This document shows positions 13,146 to 63,485 of a DNA stretch of 64,000 nucleotides, piece by piece; within the stretch, counting starts at the first letter, position 1; each line of letters begins with the position of its first letter. The stretch lies in assembly GCA_951406725.2 (NCBI GenBank), contig OX597817.1, positions 33,542,001 to 33,606,000 of the forward strand, given 5' to 3'. Below the pieces are notes generated by a model. The model searched no databases. It saw only the letters and a program-made list of their open reading frames with translations, and was not told the DNA's origin. Position numbers and translations under genes: made by a program. Source of the DNA: Octopus vulgaris. Its lineage: Eukaryota.

Positions 13146-14116
13146 TCTTGCGCTGACCAAAGCGCTGTGAAGGAAATTAAGTGAAAATTGTGTGGAATCT
13201 CGTTAGATGGATTATATCAGTAAAAGAAAAAATCAGCCATGTTCCACACCGTATCATCTAGTAGTAGCAGTCGTAGTAGTTTGGGTTGCTCAGGAATTTC
13301 AGGATTTGTTTTTAAAATTCGTTTTAGAGATAAGGTCGTAAAGGAAGTAAGTTTAAGAATTTCCGAGTAGTTTCCGAGTAAAATCCCTCGTTGGAAATGT
13401 TTTAAAAATCTTTTATTTTCTCGTTGTTTATCATGCACAAATACAGGGAAATCTTATTATTTCTAAGTCTCTCTAACGGCAGCGGTACTGGATATTAACA
13501 GTTATTGCCAAGCTAATATGGCAGTCCATAAATATAGGACGTAAGCTGCCGTTGATTAGCTCCAAGAGGCCATAGCCTCTAGCTAGCTATATGACACACG
13601 CACCTGTGTCCATTATAACCTTCGAACAGAAGAGGTCAGCCGCTTCCCCTTGCTGATCAGATTTAGAAATAGACAATACCAAACGAGTTCCCTATGGATA
13701 CCGTATTTATTACAACGAGTGGCTTGTAAACGTATAAATACGGTATCCATAGGGAATGAGTTTGGTATTTTATTTATTACACACGAATAAACGACCATAT
13801 TTTATTAATCTAATAATTAAATTCTTCACATCATGTTGAAGCGCGCATGAATACAGCTTGATTTCACGTCAGTGACGTCACAATGTGTAACTGTAAAAGA
13901 TGTCATGCCGCAGGAAGATAGTCCGACTTTATAGCGCTAAGTTTTCAGGTGAAATGACTGATAACTGATGACTATTTAACATTTTGTTAACATTCAAGTT
14001 CACGTTCAAGAAATACATAACACAGATTGAATCTTCAATAACTTTAATAATACTCAAACATGTTTTCGAGTAGCAATGTCAGTCAGAGAATAGTCAGCAC
14101 AATAGTCCAGGAAAAC

Positions 14117-15673
14117 TTAACAGTCCTCATTATCTGTGAGACGAGGTCGCTTTGCATCTGAACCAAAGAAGTTCACATTGATTGTTCCCCCATATATTGG
14201 AGCCGAGAAAATGGAGTGCAATGAACCAAAGCAAGTGACAGCGTTCCGAGATTGACTCGACGTAACGTTGACGGTGGAGGGGAGTTCATTTGCACTCGCT
14301 GCTGCTGTGTGTGACGGAGGTACAAGCGAACCAGGCTGGTCGTTGTTGCTACTAAGGATGTTACTGATGGCACGATGACGATCCATGTAACTATTGATGC
14401 TTTGCACATTACGATGTCCAGATATCTGCATGATTTCAGTTGGAGGAATGTTCTGGTCAGCGAGCTTCTGCACAAGGCATTTGCGTGCTGAATGGTTCGT
14501 GAATCTTCGATTGTCCAAACCAGCTGATTTAGCCATCCTTTTCATAATTGTACCTAGTTTGTTGACACCGACCGGTTGACGTTTAAACCAGGGATGAGAA
14601 TGGGAGGCATCTTTGCAGTTGGTGGCCAAATAAAATGGTGAATCCGGCGATGAATAATCTGATGGTCTCAGATCAGCAAAACGCTTGTACAGGTTAACTG
14701 GACAACGCCCATCATTCGTCGCCCATGCTTTTGGGTAGATGTTACGTGCATGGTCGAGATTATCACCTTGACAAGTTTTGGACTGTCGCTCCCTAAACTG
14801 AAGGAATTCCTTGCCTTCATTGTCAACATGCAAAGAAACGTCGCTCCATCGCATGTCGTTGTGAGGTTTGACACTCCGGATACCAAAGTGAACGGTGTTG
14901 TTCCACCATAGCGTGTTGAGGATGGATTCAGGTGTGTTCGGACCGAGCTGGTCACATTCCCATAGCTTGTTGATATCATCGTCGGAGAGAGATTCCGCGC
15001 GTCGAGGTAGGTTTCCCATTCCTTCACTTTTCAACAGCTTTTGCTTTGTTTTTAGTACATCATGTAGTTTCACGAATGTCCCGTCCGAGAATAGTGACGT
15101 CGAGTAGTGTTTTGACTTCAGATATCTTTCAATACTGGATAACATTCCCCTCAAAGATGAAGGTTCATAGTTGCTACCGTCCGGCTTTCGCAACGAGATA
15201 AAGAAAGTACACAGAATGTCACAAAGTTCGCTTTTGTCGATAGATTCAATTGGACGCGTGTCGCCATTTGTCGCCATGAAAGCAAACAATCGTTTAACAT
15301 CATAGTTTGTTTTCCGAAGCGTGTTTTTATTTTGATTACCTTGAACGAATTTATCTATTCCAGAATGATCATACCTCGGTTGAAATTCAAGATCATTATG
15401 GCTATCATCAAAGAAATCGTCACGAAGAAGATCATTGTACACCTCATCAGGGATGTTAAATGTAGGGTTCGATGACAATCCACTCGTCGATGACACTGTT
15501 TCAGGTACCTTTGTTAACCTGTATCCAGCAACATGTCGAACTTGGCCAGTATTGGTCTTTACATTGAACATTCTGTATGTTCCAAGAGTTTGAACAACGG
15601 ATAACACTCTTCCCCCATCTTTACCATCAATCTTAACAAAATCATTCACCTTGATATCGACAACAGTAGCCAT
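14117..15673 (-). CDS. Tyrosine recombinase of the Crypton / DUF3504 (KCTD1/QRICH1/ZMYM-related) family, 518 aa from ATG 15673
   Basis: Family motifs NKNTLRKT, FFISLRKPDGSNYEPSSL, GMGNLP, RCPVNLY, PFYL and WFKRQPVGVNKL. Catalytic set in ORF-track numbering: R291 (HFGIR), K324 (QSKT), H419-x-x-R422 (TNHSARK), H445 (SGH) and Y454. C-terminal IYGGTINVNF and NLS-like KRPRL. No stops or introns. Confidence 0.92.
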   Translation of the reverse strand: MATVVDIKVNDFVKIDGKDGGRVLSVVQTLGTYRMFNVKTNTGQVRHVAGYRLTKVPETVSSTSGLSSNPTFNIPDEVYNDLLRDDFFDDSHNDLEFQPRYDHSGIDKFVQGNQNKNTLRKTNYDVKRLFAFMATNGDTRPIESIDKSELCDILCTFFISLRKPDGSNYEPSSLRGMLSSIERYLKSKHYSTSLFSDGTFVKLHDVLKTKQKLLKSEGMGNLPRRAESLSDDDINKLWECDQLGPNTPESILNTLWWNNTVHFGIRSVKPHNDMRWSDVSLHVDNEGKEFLQFRERQSKTCQGDNLDHARNIYPKAWATNDGRCPVNLYKRFADLRPSDYSSPDSPFYLATNCKDASHSHPWFKRQPVGVNKLGTIMKRMAKSAGLDNRRFTNHSARKCLVQKLADQNIPPTEIMQISGHRNVQSINSYMDRHRAISNILSSNNDQPGSLVPPSHTAAASANELPSTVNVTSSQSRNAVTCFGSLHSIFSAPIYGGTINVNFFGSDAKRPRLTDNEDC

Positions 15674-15904
15674 CTTGTTGATAGATCTACCTGCACTGCA
15701 AGAGTATCGACGAGCAGACAATATATGTTGTGATTTTTTTGGCAACAAAAAATTGAATTACGACCAGAAATTTTTATATTTTATGTGTATATGACTTTAA
15801 GTGATATCTGGTATAAAAAAGATAGTATGTTTGTTTAATTACATGGCTACATTCTACCTGCTCGTGAAAGTTTAGTTGTAACTTATGAATGACAAAAGTA
15901 GTGC

Positions 15905-15950
15905 CGTCACCGTGACCTCGGGTCATCACCATGGATTGACCAATCAGAAG
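15905..15950 (-). promoter_or_regulatory. Putative promoter elements upstream of the YR ORF (CCAAT box and short palindromes)
   Basis: GACCAATCAG at 15938-15947 and palindromes GTCACCGTGAC and TGACCTCGGGTCA, about 250 bp upstream of the ATG. Confidence 0.35.
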
Positions 15951-16895
15951 CAGCGCTCGCAGTATCTGACGTATGTTAGATACCAAAAATATCTCAAAGT
16001 GTTCTCACTCACATGTGTGTAATAAATAATAATATTTCTATTTTTGAAGACCAGTGGATGTATTCCACTGAAATTAGGTAAATATTCCTTCGAACAGACG
16101 GTCAGCAGCGACGCCTGCTGGGTTCGGCTACTCTGCATTGCTAAAGGGTAAATACCCTGAAACATGTCTGCAGATGCTTGACCAGCAAGGAGAAGAGGCT
16201 AACTTCCCCTGTTCGAAGGTTATAATGGACACACGTTCGTGTGTCATATAGCTAGCTATAGGCGATGGCCTCTTGGAGCTAATCAACGGCAGCTTACGTC
16301 CTATATTTATGGACTGCCATATTAGCTTGGCGATAACTGTTAATATACAGTGATATCATTAATGATGTATTGTTGTGCAGATGACGTAGAAGAAACTGAC
16401 AAAGCTATTACAAGGACATCACCACTGGTAGCAGCAACAAAGCCGGCCAAACTTCTGTCCCACCCTACCATCTTAAAGAAGGTAAACGTAGACACTCATA
16501 TAAAGACTGGATGGTCATGACTGGAACGCAATTCAATATATGTTTACTCGATTCGGACTTGATCAATAATAAAACAACGACGACGATGACAAACAACGGT
16601 AACAACGCCAACATTAGTTGCTACACTTATGATTACAATATCTCTAGCATTAGTTAGCAACAACAGAAACATAGTAAAAATAACCCGTTATCAACAACGA
16701 CAACAATCCCTCGACTTTTAAATCTACTTCCCTTAAGAAACTATCGTCTTGTGAAAGAAAGGCTGCAGTATTGACAGAAACAAAATCCTTCGTTAATATT
16801 TGAATGCTTTAATACATCTTTTCAATTTGATTGCCAATTTTCGAAAATTCAAAGTTTATTGAAATTTTCAAAATTTAGTAAATTAACCCATAAAG

Positions 16896-21888: not shown

Positions 21889-23161
21889 TTCTGCCTTTTG
21901 TGGAAAGGATGCGTTCCGATGGTCAGGCGATCCGTTTACTGCCAACACCCGTTAAAAGGAGGACTGGGCATGCTGTGGTTGATGATGCGCAGACACGCGC
22001 TGAGGCTGCGACATCTCCGGCTCTACGTAGACGACGGTGAACAGGTGTGGTCGCAGTTTGTGAGGCGCGCTTTCCCCCAGCTCCTCTCCATGACCGAACT
22101 GCAGTCGTGGAACAAAGAGGCCGAGGAAGGGCGAATGGCACCACGAATGTCGTGTTGCTCTCGAGCAACTATGCCATGCCGGGTCGACCTTGAGCGACTT
22201 CAACACAACCAAAGCATTCTATAGGAGTTTAGTGGAGGGGAGGTACGACGACGATCCTGGGCGTCGACGAGGAATACCTGACCCGTCTGTTCAAGACGAC
22301 ATTCGGGCCGGGACCTATGGACAACTTCCAGAGATCCCTGGCCTGGCAGTGCTATCGAGAAGCGCTACCCGTTCAGGATAAGCTTTATAGGCTCGAGAAA
22401 CAGGGGGCCGACCTGCCAGAGATGCGGTCAGAGCGACGAAACCGTTCTGCACGCATTTGTACAGTGTCCAACCATTTCTGACCTGTGAGCCTATGTCGAA
22501 CGACTGCTATCGCGTGTGGGACGAGTCGGTTTATCAACCGAGTCTATCGTGAATATCGTCGCGTCTCCTTCCTTGAAACGGGAAAGAAGAGTCATTTTCA
22601 TCGGTCCAGGACAAACAATTGCCTCTCTGGTTAATCACTCATCAACTTCTTCAAGTATCGCTTGAAGAGGAAGGTGAGAGTAGAGAAGGAAGTTTTGTCT
22701 AGTGAATGTTTCAAAAAAAAAAAAAAAAGATAGGTGAATGTAGCAAGGATGGCACGTGTGAATGACGGAACCAGCTTGAGCATAATCCTATGAACCAAAA
22801 AAAAAAAAAAGAAATGAAAAAGAGAGCCACTTATTGTAATGATTGATTGATTCTAGTTTCAGCTCATGAGCTGAGGCCATGCTGGGGCACCGCCATTATG
22901 ATTTTTTGCATGACATTATTGGCCAATGTTACCGTGGTCTTTTCCGTAGGCTTTTCTTTCCACGTATAAACCTAATCTGTTCCCATTTTTACATTGATAT
23001 TTCTGTGATACACGATCCCTATTGCCCCCCCACTTTTTTTTTCTCCACGATCCCTTTTGATCGAAATTCTACCCCTCCCTTTTTTTCTTCTTCCCAAAAA
23101 GAAAACCTCTACTTTGCATTTTGTCCCCTCTGTGTTCAGCCCCGTGTGGCCAATAAAGAAA
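21889..23161 (+). mobile_element. 5'-truncated Tx1/L1-clade LINE (post-RT region, zinc finger and 3' UTR) embedded in a (TATC)n microsatellite
   Basis: LWKGCVPMVRRSVYCQHPLKGGLGM matches the L1/Tx1 FLW.G......P...GGLG motif. Downstream frameshifted C..C...ET..H.F..CP zinc finger (about 22410-22470). Ends in AATAAAGAAA, with (TATC)n on both sides. Confidence 0.8.
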
Positions 23162-44016: not shown

Positions 44017-44039
44017 TTAGTCAACCCTATATATATATA

Positions 44040-44227
44040 CTCTTTTACTTGTTTCAGTCATTTGACTGTGGCCATGCTGGAGCACCGCCTTTAGTCGAGC
44101 AAATCGACCCCAGGACTTATTCTTTGTAAGCCTAGTATTTATTCTATCGGTCTCTTTTTGCCGAACCGCTATGTTACGGGGACGTAAACACACCAGCATC
44201 GGTTGTCAAGTGATGTTGGGGGGACAA

Positions 44228-44268
<41 letters not shown>

Positions 44269-47316: not shown

Positions 47317-48370
47317 GGTGCCTTCCTCTCAGATCGCTCCTTCCAAGTTCAAGTTAATGGTTCGCGGTCCGACGTCTCCAGTGCGAGCAGTGGCGTGCCT
47401 CAAGGTTCAGTGCTTGGGCCCTTGTTGTTCTTAGTCTTCATAAATGACTTGCCCGACGACCTCACGCAACACACCCTTCTATTTGCCGACGATATCAAAC
47501 TGGTCGCTCCTCGCGGTAGTATAGAGGATCTTCGTCGATGCCTCCACCAAATTTGGAAGTGGTCTAACGATTGGGACCTGTGTCTGAACGTGTCAAAGTG
47601 CTGTCATCTGCCTGTTGGCTCTACTCCTGCAACTCAACTTGATTTCGAGCCGGGTCGTCTGCTTCTGGAGAGGACCGATCAGGTAAAGGACCTGGGTATC
47701 TTGGTGGATTCCTTCTTTTCTCCTTCGGTTCAGTGCGTCCATGCTGCCAACAAAGCGCGCGGAATTCTGTTTTTGATTCGACGGTCATTCGGAATGCTCA
47801 CAGCAGCCATATTCCTACCACTCTATGTCACGCTGGTGAGACCCATATTGGAGTATGGGATTCAAGCCTCTTCTTATCTCCTCAAAGACATACAGCATCT
47901 CGAAAGAGTCCAGAGGCTGGCTACCCGCATGGTTCATGGTCTCAAAAATTTGTCCTACGAAGAAAGGCTGAGGACGCTCGACCTTTATTCTCTTGAAAAA
48001 CGCCGCCGCCGTGGTGATCTCATTCTCGCCCACAACATCATAAGCTAGAAGTGTAACCTCTCGAAAGAGCTGTTCTTCAATCCTGCTCCGGAGCGTCGAC
48101 TGCGGGGTCATTCCGAAAAGCTCTACCTGCGACGATTTCATCTCAATCGAAGGAGAGGAGCTTTCTCCGTCCGGGTTGCGGATCCGTGGAACAAGCTGCC
48201 AGACGAGATGGTGAAGATGCCGACGACCGCTTTGTTCAAAGCCTCCCTGGACCTCAAGTGGCCTGAACTCTTTACATGAACACCACCCTGTACTTAACTC
48301 CATGTCCCCCTACATGGCCTTGCTATTTGCTTTTGAGCCAAATTAACTAACTAACTAACTAACTAACTAA
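47317..48370 (+). mobile_element. 5'-truncated, young CR1-group LINE (RT C-terminal half to 3' end) with (TAAC)n tail and 8-bp TSD
   Basis: GVPQGSVLGPLLFLVFINDL, LLFADDIKL, KDLGILVD, LYVTLVRPILEY, LERVQRLAT and SLEKRRRRGDLI. One in-frame TAG at 48046-48048, after which the frame continues LRGH..KL...WNKLP..FKASLD. TSD CATAAGTT at 47309-47316 and 48371-48378. Confidence 0.93.
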
Positions 48371-50199: not shown

Positions 50200-50597
50200 T
50201 TACTCTTTTACTTGTTTCAGTCATTTGACTGCGGCCATGCTGGAGCACCGCCTTTAGTCGAGCAAATCGACCCCGGGACTTATTCTTTCTAAGTCCAGTA
50301 CTTATTCTATCGGTCTCTTTTGCCGAACCGCTAAGTGACGGGGACGTAAACACACCAGCATTGGTTGTCAAGCAATGCTAGGGGGACAAACACAAACATA
50401 TACACACACACCCATACATATATATACATATATACGACAGGCTTCTTTCAGTTTCCGTCTACCAAATCCACTCACAAGGCATTGGTCGGCCCGGGGCTAT
50501 AGCAGAAGACACTTGCCCAAGATGCCACGCAGTGGGACTGAACCCGGAACCGTGTGGTTGGTTAGCAAGCTACTTACCACACAGCCACTCCTGCGCC
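50200..50597 (-). mobile_element. SINE family A, full length
   Basis: Nearly identical to 26340-26707. Confidence 0.9.
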
Positions 50598-51065
50598 TAT
50601 GATGTAATGTATGTATTTATGTATGTATGTATTTATGTATGTATTTATGTATGTATGTCTCTTCTATTTTTTAATTATGATAAATCTTCCACTGAGGAGG
50701 GAGCCTGTTTCCAACAAAGATACAAAGCTCATCTTTGTGATGTAGTTAACACAGACAAATTCATATTTGAAACTTGAGAAAAGTCTTGCTTATTTTTACT
50801 ATTCCACTCACAGATTGGACTTGCAATGTACGAATCAGCCGGTCAATTTCTCTTTCTGAAAATCCCAGTTTATCTAGATCTCCTTTAAGTATTTACCAAC
50901 AAAACCTAGTGCTCCAATTATTATTGGTATGAATAGAAATTCATAGTCTGGATATAGAAGCTGGAGGTTTCATTTTTTCACTCTGCGGAGAAATGGCTAA
51001 AATTTGCCCTGTTTATAATTATACCATGCTACATACATAATATATCATATCTTGATACTGTGTGG

Positions 51066-53399: not shown

Positions 53400-55750
53400 T
53401 AGACCAAAAATAAAGGCACGACTAACTGCAATTATAGCCGAATATTGTTGGCAGTACTGGTGTAGGGAATCTTGTTTTAGCTTTCTCTTTTCTTTCGGTT
53501 GTTTCATCCAGTTTACCTTTAACATTTACTCCTTTATGACAATTGTTTGCAGTCATTTACTGTCTTCTTTGCGGTTACAATAAGGTTACCAGCCTCACTG
53601 GTATGTCGTTTGATGATATCCTCTTAGTGGAGATTCTTTCTTTGACGGCTTTCATATTTCAGCTCATTGGACAGTACAGCCTTAGTGACCATTTTATCTT
53701 CCATACAGATCGTGTGTTTCACCCACCAAAACTGTGATTTTGACATGAAAGATTTAACCGAAACTGCATACTGTGAGACCTGGTTGGAGATGAAACCTCG
53801 CCAAGAGCACAGCCTTAGTGATCATTTTATCTTCCATACAGATCGTGTGTTTCACCCACCGAAACTGTGATTCTAGCATGAAAGATTTAACCAAAACTGT
53901 GATTCTGACATGAAAGATTTAACCGAAACTGTGATTCTGACATGAAAGATTTAACCGAAACTGCATACAGTGAGACCATCTGGTTGGAGATGAAACCTCG
54001 CCAAGTAATGTTCATTATAGTTCGCAACTGACAACTCATCAGCGTTTTAATATGCCAACTATACGCTGTATATCAGTAGAATACCTAGATAGGATAGTAC
54101 TGCTGCTCGGTAAACTTTGCATTTTGTTGGTAATTTAATGCCACGCTGATTCTAGTCGATCTTTAAGCTTCCCGAAAACGTCGGTAGCCAGACTTGCGAT
54201 CATCCAGACTTGCCGTCGGAAATCGCACTGCTTAAATATGGAAACTTTTTCATCACACTTAGAGAGGTTGATTAGCAATCGTGATGGCTGGAGATTTGTG
54301 TCTTAGTACTCTGGGTTTAGATTGGTATTTTTTTTTTTACATTTATAGATGGGCCGAAACTTGACGCCGCTCATTAATAAAACGGTAATTTTCTGGCTAT
54401 ATACGAAGGGATGGGCCACTAAGGTCAAATCATCAGCGAAACTAATTTGGGGTTTACAAATGTCGTAGCATTTTCTGATGGATCTTTGTTTAGGTTTGTT
54501 TTTAAAAAAAATCATCATCCACTCTTTTATAGATATACGCCCCTCATCTGTGTGTTCTTTCGGCATCTTTCTAAGTACAGAAGTAAGAAATACTGCATAG
54601 TACTGAGGCGAGTACACAACCATTTTACTCCAGAGGCACCCGAAAAAGGTGTGGGTGATCTGTCTCTCCCAGGAGAGATCGTGGCAGATATAACATCGTG
54701 AAATATTTGACTATTTCAAAAAATCTGTTCTAGTATCCTTACATTTTGAGCAATGTCTTCCCACAATGCAGAAAGTAGAAGGTGGTGAGCTGGCAGAAAC
54801 GTTAGCACGCAGGGCGAAATGCTTAGCGGTATTTCGTCTGCCGTTACATTCTGAGTTCAAATTCCGCCGAGGTCGACTTTGCCTTTCATCCTTTCGGGGT
54901 CGATTAAATAAGTACCAGTTACGCACTGGGGTCGATGTAATCGACTTAATCCGTTTGTCTGTCTTTGTTTGTCCTCTCTGTGTTTAGCCCCTTGTGGGTA
55001 GTAAAGAAATAGGTATTTCGTCTGTCTTTGCGTTCTGAGTTCAAATTCCGCCGAGGTCGACTTTGCCTTTCATCCTTTCGGGGTCGATTAAATAAGTACC
55101 AGTTACGCACTGGGGTCGATATAATCGACTTAATCCGTTTGTCTGTCCTTGTTTGTCCTCTCTATGTTTAGCCCCTTGTGGGTAGTAAAGAAATAAGTAT
55201 TTCGTCTGCCGCTACGTTCTGAGTTCCAATTCCGCCGAGGTCGACTTTGCCTTTCATCCTTTCGACTTAATCTGTGTGTCTGTGTGTAGCTCCATGTGGC
55301 AGTAAAGGAATAAGAAAGTAGAATGCATTTCCTGAATTTTTCAAAAGTTAAAAATCATGTCGCTTGTGCCCTGAGATAAACGAAATCCATACAGCTCTTC
55401 AAGGAGAATTTGTTCGGAATATTTTGTAATCTCTTAAGTAATTTTGCTAGTATTTCTCTGCAATTGAGAGAAAGGAAATAAATTCCTTGGTAGTTTTTAC
55501 CCCCCTGCTTGTTGCCCCTCCACTTATAAATGTTGACTACCTGCGCATCCTTGAATTATTTAGGGAGGTTACCACATTGCCAGCATTATCTGAAGAGCTG
55601 GATGGTCTTTAAAACTTCTTTGTAGATGCTGTCAAGACCAGAAGCTTTCCTTGATTTTGTCATAGATTGTTATCACTAGATCCTCCATATTTAGTGGTAG
55701 AACCAAACTAGTATCTTCCGGAATTTGCGAATATGTTCCCATCAACGCTA
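53400..55750 (-). mobile_element. Old RTE (BovB-like) LINE, RT through C-terminus, interrupted by a SINE trimer and internal duplications
   Basis: Minus-strand remnants in the expected order: KASGLDSIYKEV..CW..G.LP..FKDA..VNIYK..NYQGI (55660-55490), YGFR..QGTSDMIF (about 55390), SFADDLTLVAH (about 54440) and SQFWWVKH..MEDK..KAVL..ELK (about 53740-53660). Confidence 0.8.
54781..55312 (+). mobile_element. SINE family B: one head plus three tandem bodies (period 184 bp), with a single 11-bp TSD
   Basis: The body restarts at 54828, 55012 and 55196. TSD AGAAAGTAGAA at 54770-54780 and 55313-55323. Confidence 0.92.
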
Positions 55751-62709: not shown

Positions 62710-62940
62710 ATGTATGTATGTACGTACGTACGTACGTACGTACGTACGTACATACATACATACATACATACATACATACATACATACATACATACATACA
62801 TACATACATACATACATACATACATACATACATACATACATACATACATACATACATACATACATACATACATACATACATACATACATACATACATACA
62901 TACATACATACATACATACATACATACATACATACATACA

Positions 62941-63485
62941 TGGTGCATGTGCACTAAGTTCTAACTTCAGCTGTTTACAGCGGTGTTTCGAAGTAACGTG
63001 TGATCGTTGCATTGACCATGACAAGGAAAGTTGTCATGGCGATACCTGCTCAGAGGCCTACGCAAAGTTGCAGAAAGTGTATGGAGAGGAGTATATGAGC
63101 CACACACAAGTGTACGAGCGGTTCAGACGGTTCCAAGATGGACGAAAAATGTCGATAGTGACTGACGTTCTGGAAGACCTGCAGCCAGCAGAGCTGAGAA
63201 AACATCGCAGATGTGCGTGAGGCTGTAAGGGAAAATCGTCGAATCACCATCCGCGATTTATCAGATGTGTAAACTAGTTACGGTTCAGTTCAGTCCATTA
63301 CCAATAAAGATTTGGGTACGAGATGCGTGTCTGCTAAGTTTGTGCCAAAACTACTTTCAACTTACCAAAAAGATACTCGGGTTTCAGTTGCACAAAATCT
63401 CCTTGATCGTGTCAAAAACGATGAAACCTTTTCAAAAATGTGTGTAGGCCTCTGAGCTGTCCGGATACTTATTGATCATACCATG
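62941..63485 (+). mobile_element. Internally deleted mariner element (N-terminal HTH and right TIR)
   Basis: GDTCSEAYAKLQKVYGEEYMSHTQVYERFRRFQDGR is a Mos1-type HTH. It is followed by ENRRITIRDL and MR.VSAKFVPK.L remnants and a TIR-like TCCGGATACTTATTGATCATACCATG|TA at 63460-63487. Confidence 0.82.

What the first reader, a model, noticed from the sequence alone, without database searches (positions are those of the whole stretch)
13664..16040. Reconstructed empty site is a palindromic YR-type core site
Seen: TAGAAATA (13664-13671) lies just outside the left end and its exact reverse complement TATTTCTA (16033-16040) lies just outside the right end. Removing the element gives TAGAAATA-gactaa-TATTTCTA, or TAGAAATA-gacaa-TATTTCTA if the crossover lies in the shared AATA (13675-13678 and 16031-16034). 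There is no classical TSD. Established: tyrosine recombinase core sites (loxP, FRT, dif, attB) are inverted binding elements around a 6-8-bp spacer. Inference: this is a sequence-specific integration target, so the element may be a natural metazoan site-specific integrase system.
Basis: partly seen in the sequence, partly recalled or inferred. Interest (0 to 1): 0.7.

Follow-up and report, generated by a model that had tools for sequence, protein, structure and literature searches.

The report
Octopus Crypton transposon inside a repeat
An octopus jumping gene with a Cre-like recombinase landed, through a very short AT-rich match, in a repeat that happens to be palindromic there; related elements in other animals use the same short match without any palindrome, so this is not a loxP-like landing site.

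Summary
Both octamers are present, but the proposed empty site is wrong. The insert is a CryptonA-type transposon: one DUF3504 tyrosine recombinase (14117-15673, minus), Cre-like fold, catalytic residues kept, 97% identical to an octopus protein. Its ends are bounded by a 5-base direct repeat (13667-13671, 16024-16028). Other copies of the host repeat in octopus assemblies (21 contigs in one run) show the uninterrupted junction: octamer, 4 bases, octamer, not the 5- or 6-base spacers proposed. So the empty site is palindromic, but the octamer is the host repeat's own motif (third copy at 13458) and the crossover lies in the left arm or at its edge. Related elements (37-46% protein identity, metagenome contigs) share a 3-base core in a T-TAT-D-T context and need no palindrome: 0 of 27 hairpin ends and 0 of 25 plain ends carry the octamer at the junction (by eye). 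Flanks of other copies of this same octopus family could not be read, so a family-specific preference is not excluded. What may be new: a conserved end design (terminal hairpin plus internal inverted copy of the other end) for CryptonA, whose ends the papers I saw list as undetermined.

The parts
13667..16028 (-). CryptonA-type tyrosine-recombinase DNA transposon, about 2.36 kb, counted with both copies of the 5-base direct repeat
   Evidence: end motifs match related families
14117..15673 (-). Single intronless ORF, 518 aa, DUF3504 / phage-integrase tyrosine recombinase; R266, K299, H394, R397, H420, Y429 present; four codons missing directly after Y429 relative to other copies
   Evidence: (table 4)
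13667..13671 (+). Left copy of the 5-base direct repeat (AAATA); 13669-13671 is the 3-base core shared with related elements; overlaps the left octamer
16024..16028 (+). Right copy of the 5-base direct repeat; 16026-16028 is the 3-base core; uninterrupted host copies match from 16024 onward
   Evidence: tables 5, 7
13675..13769 (.). Terminal hairpin of the element: 36-base arms, 92% complementary, 23 bases apart
   Evidence: -34.7 kcal/mol, z -11.1, 0 of 200 shuffles
13770..13784 (.). Internal inverted copy of the element's other (plain) end, 15 of 15 bases complementary to 16015-16029
   Evidence: same design in related loci
16015..16028 (-). Plain end of the element; its first 12 bases are identical to the plain end of related loci L007 and L048
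   Evidence: read by eye
13664..13671 (+). Octamer TAGAAATA, left arm of the empty-site palindrome; part of the host repeat, last 5 bases shared with the element end
16033..16040 (+). Octamer TATTTCTA, right arm of the empty-site palindrome; part of the host repeat, 4 bases outside the element
13458..13465 (+). Third copy of the octamer at the outer left edge of the host repeat
13458..13666 (.). Left part of an abundant non-coding host repeat; 13487-13659 is 92.5% complementary to 16179-16351
16029..16351 (.). Right part of the host repeat, with a weak hairpin at about 16031-16087 (11 of 200 shuffles fold as well)
   Evidence: no Rfam match

Best explanation
A CryptonA DNA transposon inserted into an older, abundant non-coding repeat. 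Shown: one recombinase gene of the tyrosine family, ends bounded by a short direct repeat, an uninterrupted form of the host junction in other copies, and a shared end design in related elements. Inferred (Goodwin model as cited in PMC3212892 and PMC9977147): the recombinase joins the two ends into a circle and recombines that junction with a genomic site that shares only a 3- to 5-base core (TAT on the coding strand, usually in T-TAT-D-T), so no duplication is made. The terminal hairpin and the internal inverted copy of the plain end are probably extra recombinase-binding or structural sites (inference). The palindrome belongs to the host repeat and merely contained a matching AT-rich core. 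This copy lacks four codons next to the catalytic tyrosine and may be impaired; other copies have them.
For: DUF3504 E 8e-26 and Phage_integrase E 3e-08; Cre among the best folds, E 1e-08; catalytic residues invariant or nearly so in 30 sequences. Host contigs match from 16024. In related families with several insertions the shared sequence stops at the same motifs as in the window. By eye: of 27 hairpin ends seen, 18 have an intact, readable core; the second base after it is T in 17 or 18 of 18 and the first is never C; the base before the core is T in 24 of 25 plain ends; the window fits both. In 8 loci with both ends readable, 1 to 5 of 7 positions are symmetric in the window's register (mean 3; window 7 of 7; about 2 expected in AT-rich DNA). 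Element ends are laid far deeper than the gene (15971: about 242,000 against 400-600 inside and 59 for unique flank in X1; 65,000, 169 and 28 in X3), and deeper than the host repeat at 16085 (65,000 and 23,000).
Against: No flank of another copy of this octopus family was seen; the target pattern comes from relatives at 37-46% identity. The contigs that show the empty junction come from other arrangements of the host repeat (their upstream part lies on the minus strand of 13479-13639), not from this locus; no direct joint 13666-13671 to 16024-16029 is among the 15 joints shown (45 were hidden). Because the crossover can lie anywhere in the 5-base repeat, it may fall exactly at the arm/spacer border of a 7-6-7 palindrome. 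The mean symmetry of 3 of 7 is slightly above chance; L026 has 7 of 8 octamer letters at its junction and L006 has the octamer 6 bases beyond it. Contig depth is no copy number. The T before the core may belong to the element. Counts are by eye.
Confidence: 0.72

Rival explanations
1. Nesting preference: the host repeat is itself a non-autonomous CryptonA-type element (plain end at about 13457, inverted copy at 13659-13671, hairpin at 16031-16087), and the recombinase is drawn to Crypton-like ends, so the palindrome is a by-product of the end design of the older element.
For: The host octamer starts like a CryptonA plain end and recurs inverted before a hairpin. Locus L060 is inserted into another CryptonA-type hairpin (84% over 98 bases, E 8e-26).
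Against: Only 2 of 51 flanks hit a Crypton hairpin (one weakly) against 6 of 300 background windows. The host hairpin is weak (11 of 200 shuffles). Joints show the host in several rearranged forms that I could not resolve.
Confidence: 0.15
2. This octopus family recognises the palindrome as a true core site, 7-base arms (13664-13670, 16034-16040) around a 6-base spacer (16028-16033), cutting at the arm/spacer border and needing no further spacer homology.
For: The corrected empty site is symmetric in 18 of 20 positions and the crossover interval touches the arm/spacer border. An inverted 8-mer pair by chance is uncommon, 1-5%. The protein has a Cre-like fold.
Against: Relatives with the same end motifs show no such arms. 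The element's own joined ends are not symmetric (2 to 4 of 10-11 positions for spacers of 4-7 bases, by eye) and do not resemble the octamer beyond the core. 17 contigs of X1 carry a host junction with an altered left arm. Element ends are laid deeper than the host.
Confidence: 0.09
3. One reading: the element starts at about 13675-13678 and ends at about 16031-16034, leaving a 5- or 6-base spacer between the octamers.
For: The hairpin arm starts at 13675 and a 4-base match exists; the inverted match between the ends extends to 16034 with one gap.
Against: Host contigs already match from 16024 (21 contigs) or 16030 (17 contigs). Related elements extend some bases beyond the hairpin arm to a conserved motif that the window has at 13669-13672. 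The 4-base match is one of 9.
Confidence: 0.04

Closest known systems
CryptonA DNA transposons of animals (Kojima and Jurka 2011, PMC3212892: medaka, sea urchin, acorn worm, limpet Lottia)
   Same: Single DUF3504-type tyrosine recombinase with intact catalytic residues, 1.2-2.3 kb size class, few autonomous and many non-autonomous copies, no TSD.
   Different: That paper found no terminal repeats in animal Cryptons (text; 'n.d.' in 8 of 8 CryptonA rows of supplement 1). Here the ends can be read: short direct repeat, terminal hairpin, internal inverted copy of the other end. Repbase entries were not available to me and may describe this.
CryptonF-1_cRei of Chlamydomonas (PMC9977147) and CryptonF/CryptonS with 4-6-base direct repeats (PMC3212892)
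   Same: Integration through a short match between one element end and the target, without duplication.
   Different: Other recombinase lineage; target CAYCG; activity was observed there, here only inferred.
Glomhopper, fungal CryptonA (PMC13465315)
   Same: DUF3504 recombinase with catalytic residues, found in nested repeat regions.
   Different: Boundaries and repeats could not be determined there.
Cre/loxP, Flp/FRT, Xer/dif, lambda attB core sites
   Same: Recombinase fold and chemistry; the host junction happens to be an inverted repeat.
   Different: Arms here are 7-8 bases, not 11-13 (figure from PMC3212892); the element's junction does not share arms or spacer with the target; relatives insert without a palindrome.

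Membership tests
CryptonA | Single ORF with DUF3504-type tyrosine recombinase and no reverse transcriptase or DDE transposase | tested here: met
CryptonA | Catalytic R-H-R-Y tetrad kept (unlike domesticated ZMYM/QRICH1/KCTD1 genes) | tested here: met
   R266, H394, R397, Y429, also K299 and H420; this copy lacks 4 residues after Y429
CryptonA | Multiple dispersed copies and non-autonomous derivatives | tested here: met
   11 cluster members, 10 of them on 6 contigs besides the O. sinensis one; joints 14027-15865, 14013-15192, 13960-15723 and deep ends
Crypton (general) | Short direct repeat at both ends, no TSD, no long TIR | tested here: met
   5-base repeat 13667-13671 / 16024-16028
CryptonA | Phylogenetic placement with named Repbase CryptonA elements | not tested
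   No tree built; Repbase sequences are not held. Assignment rests on DUF3504, intact tetrad and animal hosts of the 60 hits
Crypton (general) | Circular intermediate and excision | not testable with these tools
   The two raw-read runs laid 0 reads; no circle joint among the 15 joints shown of 60
loxP/FRT/dif-type core site | Two inverted arms of 11-13 bases around a 6-8-base spacer | tested here: not met
   8-base arms with 4-base centre, or 7-base arms with 6-base centre
loxP/FRT/dif-type core site | Matching arms and spacer on the element's own recombining site | tested here: not met
   Only the 5-base repeat is shared; element junction not symmetric (by eye)
loxP/FRT/dif-type core site | Same site used by independent insertions | tested here: inconclusive
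   Not met in related families (0 of 27, 0 of 25); not readable for this family
loxP/FRT/dif-type core site | Strand exchange at the borders of the spacer | tested here: inconclusive
   Crossover lies somewhere in 13667-13671; one of the possible positions is the border of a 6-base spacer

The most novel reading that the evidence does not exclude
Animal CryptonA elements, whose ends the papers I saw leave undetermined, share a readable design from octopus to reef-type metagenome hosts: a 3-base crossover core in a six-base AT-rich context, a terminal hairpin, and an inverted near-copy of the end-to-end junction with a changed spacing, so that the circle carries one long palindrome. That defines a compact one-gene, traceless integration system that has spread thousands of short copies in octopus and can now be reconstituted. 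The still bolder version, that this octopus family recognises the host palindrome as a lox-like site, I put at about 0.09.
Probability: 0.45. Interest if true: 0.55.

Novelty: new member of a known kind. Interest (0 to 1): 0.35.

Why it matters
As flagged (a natural lox-like integrase target in an animal) it would offer a new site-specific tool, but the evidence points to loose, short-motif targeting, as known for other Cryptons. The lasting value is the end anatomy and target pattern for CryptonA, which make the transposition mechanism of the lineage that gave rise to ZMYM/QRICH1/KCTD1 testable and allow non-autonomous hairpin repeats in molluscs and other animals to be assigned to it.

Tried and rejected
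No whole genome is held for this window, so octopus flanks could not be collected. Raw-read runs X21 and X22 laid 0 reads each, no test; 475 loose ends and 45 joints of that call were not shown. A 25-base pattern from the right end found 0 matches in metagenome contigs. Viral contigs: 0 loci with the protein or the alignment. Genome contigs: 2 loci, labelled as bacterial MAGs, probably host DNA. One search kept the best 80 of 462 relatives. No other copy of the element or host repeat lies in the window. No Rfam match. PDB sequence search found only QRICH1 clearly. Enrichment of nesting in Crypton hairpins: not shown. Earlier findings by place and by sequence: nothing; one search gave unrelated Penelope notes. 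A scripted flank logo and symmetry test was not run, so those counts are by eye and carry no shuffled control. Rows left out of the 18: L005, L014, L015, L045, L059 (degenerate core), L032, L033, L055, L058 (hairpin at the gene start, TA runs ambiguous); L009 and L021 were dropped as the same insertions as L018 and L020. Rejected: a DIRS-type reading of the internal inverted copy (no reverse transcriptase); a domesticated gene (multi-copy, intact tetrad, transposon ends).

Full report
Observation. The two octamers and the two AATA stretches are at the stated places. The octamer is not rare: 12 in the window, 7.65 expected, 5 of 100 shuffles reach 12. Some inverted 8-mer pair near two random points turns up in 206 of 15696 trials, and in 475 of 9598 AT-rich trials. 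A third octamer lies at 13458-13465 and pairs with 13659-13671 over 13 bases.

The insert. The only long non-repetitive ORF is 14117-15673 (minus), 518 aa, with DUF3504, Phage_integrase and QRICH1 domains. The best of 60 hits is 97% identical and is named as Octopus sinensis; named others are molluscs. Its cluster has 11 members, most named Octopus vulgaris, one of 522 aa. In 30 aligned sequences R266, R397, H420 and Y429 are invariant and K299 and H394 nearly so; the window copy lacks four residues right after Y429, seen also as 12 extra bases in contigs of two runs. The model (pLDDT 75.5) matches QRICH1 and then Cre (E 1e-08). This is a CryptonA-type element as described in PMC3212892 (I read parts 1-2 of 7, and rows of supplement 1). 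No tree was built.

The host and the empty site. The element sits in a non-coding repeat whose arms 13487-13659 and 16179-16351 are 92.5% complementary. No genome is held, so I laid four public runs on 13380-16460. Two raw-read runs gave 0 reads; two contig runs gave 4781 and 2450 records. In X1, 21 contigs match from 16024 rightwards and carry before it a consensus that ends like 13663-13666; 17 more match from 16030 with an altered left arm; joints into 16024 occur in both runs. The longest direct repeat between the two junctions is 13667-13671 / 16024-16028. So the uninterrupted host reads octamer, four bases (16029-16032), octamer, and the crossover lies within the last five bases of the left octamer. 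Limits: these contigs come from other arrangements of the host repeat, not from this locus, and most joints and loose ends were hidden. Depth is about 7-10 times the unique flank inside the gene in X1, 6 times in X3, and over a thousand times at the ends, with joints that skip the gene; depth is no copy number, but the pattern fits few full copies and many short ones.

Related elements. An alignment search gave 80 loci from metagenome contigs (best 80 of 462) and 2 from genome contigs. Several form families with independent insertions, which fixes their ends. They share the window's design: a plain end, an inverted copy of it inside, and right after that a terminal hairpin of about 100-170 bases (95 in the window; z -11.1). 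The first 12 bases of the window's plain end equal those of L007 and L048. Both ends carry TAT on the coding strand, at 16026-16028 and 13669-13671 in the window. Read by eye: 0 of 27 hairpin ends have the octamer at the junction (L026 has 7 of 8 letters; L006 has it 6 bases further out); among the 18 with a clean core the next base is T, A or G and the one after is T in 17 or 18; 0 of 25 plain ends have the octamer arm, and the base before the core is T in 24. In the 8 loci with both ends clean (L006, L007, L025, L030, L042, L060, L078, L081) symmetry in the window's register is 4, 4, 5, 1, 3, 2, 1 and 4 of 7, against 7 of 7 in the window. No locus holds the octamer pair (0 of 82). These are relatives at 37-46% identity, not the octopus family, and there is no shuffled control for these counts.

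Mechanism. Shown: recombinase, ends, short direct repeat, empty host junction, short target pattern in relatives. Inferred: excision as a circle and integration by crossover in a 3-5-base match, the model of Goodwin et al. 2003 (not seen; cited in PMC3212892) that fits the active CryptonF of Chlamydomonas (passages of PMC9977147). On a circle the junction and its internal near-copy would form one long inverted repeat; the spacing in the inner copy differs by about two bases from the real junction in the window and in the L042/L060/L078 family (by eye), which suggests a binding role without recombination (inference). The site-specific rival survives only because the crossover could lie at the border of a 7-6-7 palindrome and because flanks of this family were not seen. 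A second rival is that the host is itself a Crypton-type short element; L060 is nested in such a hairpin, but enrichment was not shown (2 of 51 against 6 of 300).

Literature. PMC3212892 states that no terminal repeats were found in animal Cryptons; PMC13465315 (passages) could not fix the ends of fungal CryptonA; PMC5753468 (passages) notes conserved termini between salmon Cryptons and Eulor repeats without a target rule in the passages seen. Searches for a description of the hairpin design or an octopus Crypton (listings only, apart from the four papers named) showed none by title or abstract start. Repbase, subscription journals and other supplements were not seen and may hold it. Two earlier notes of this scan (unchecked) describe Crypton-like elements; one reports joining at the edge of a palindrome.

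Verdict. Observation partly confirmed, interpretation partly supported. A new member of CryptonA with a loose, short target; the lox-like reading has about 0.09. Interest 0.35, carried by the end design and target pattern.

Noticed in passing
window 33231-34186: Nearly perfect inverted repeat (407-base arms, 99%, 104 bases apart) beside a 3-kb AT/AC microsatellite tract; a very young palindromic element or an assembly artefact.
   Followed up: no
window 12916-13142 and 54787-55013; 27990-28218 and 44038-44266; 27812-28026 and 50386-50600: Dispersed repeats of about 220 bases at 87-91% identity, probably SINE- or MITE-like families.
   Followed up: no
window 62714-63220; 655-1050; 21919-22224; 47815-48303: Short ORFs that look like fragments of a Mariner-type helix-turn-helix, a hAT dimerisation region and two non-LTR retrotransposon proteins (resemblance recalled, not tested).
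   Followed up: no
window 15510-15645 (residues about 10-55 of the ORF): The model has a small, confident all-beta domain at the N-terminus (pLDDT 82-89) with no Pfam match, shared by many relatives.
   Followed up: no
L060 2408-2558: A related element is inserted into the arm of another CryptonA-type terminal hairpin (84% over 98 bases to L027).
   Followed up: yes
L032, L033, L055, L058: In these relatives the terminal hairpin lies before the gene, not after it: the gene is flipped relative to the ends.
   Followed up: partly
L052 1798-1910, L004 61-143, L014 1468-1572, L077 1551-1666: Free-standing palindromic short elements with a common first few bases; one interrupts the end region of L052. 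Possibly non-autonomous Cryptons.
   Followed up: no
L081, L082: Contigs filed as bacterial MAGs carry animal-type CryptonA recombinase matches, L081 with complete ends; probably host DNA in the bins.
   Followed up: partly
P0059: A 608-aa Octopus vulgaris gene model joins a piece of this recombinase (87% over 19% of the query) to other domains; possibly a chimeric model or a nested insertion.
   Followed up: no
window 16345-16351: Many contigs of run X3 leave the host repeat here with unrelated AT-rich flanks (17 and 11 contigs, agreement about 0.5), so a subfamily of the host ends at this point.
   Followed up: partly
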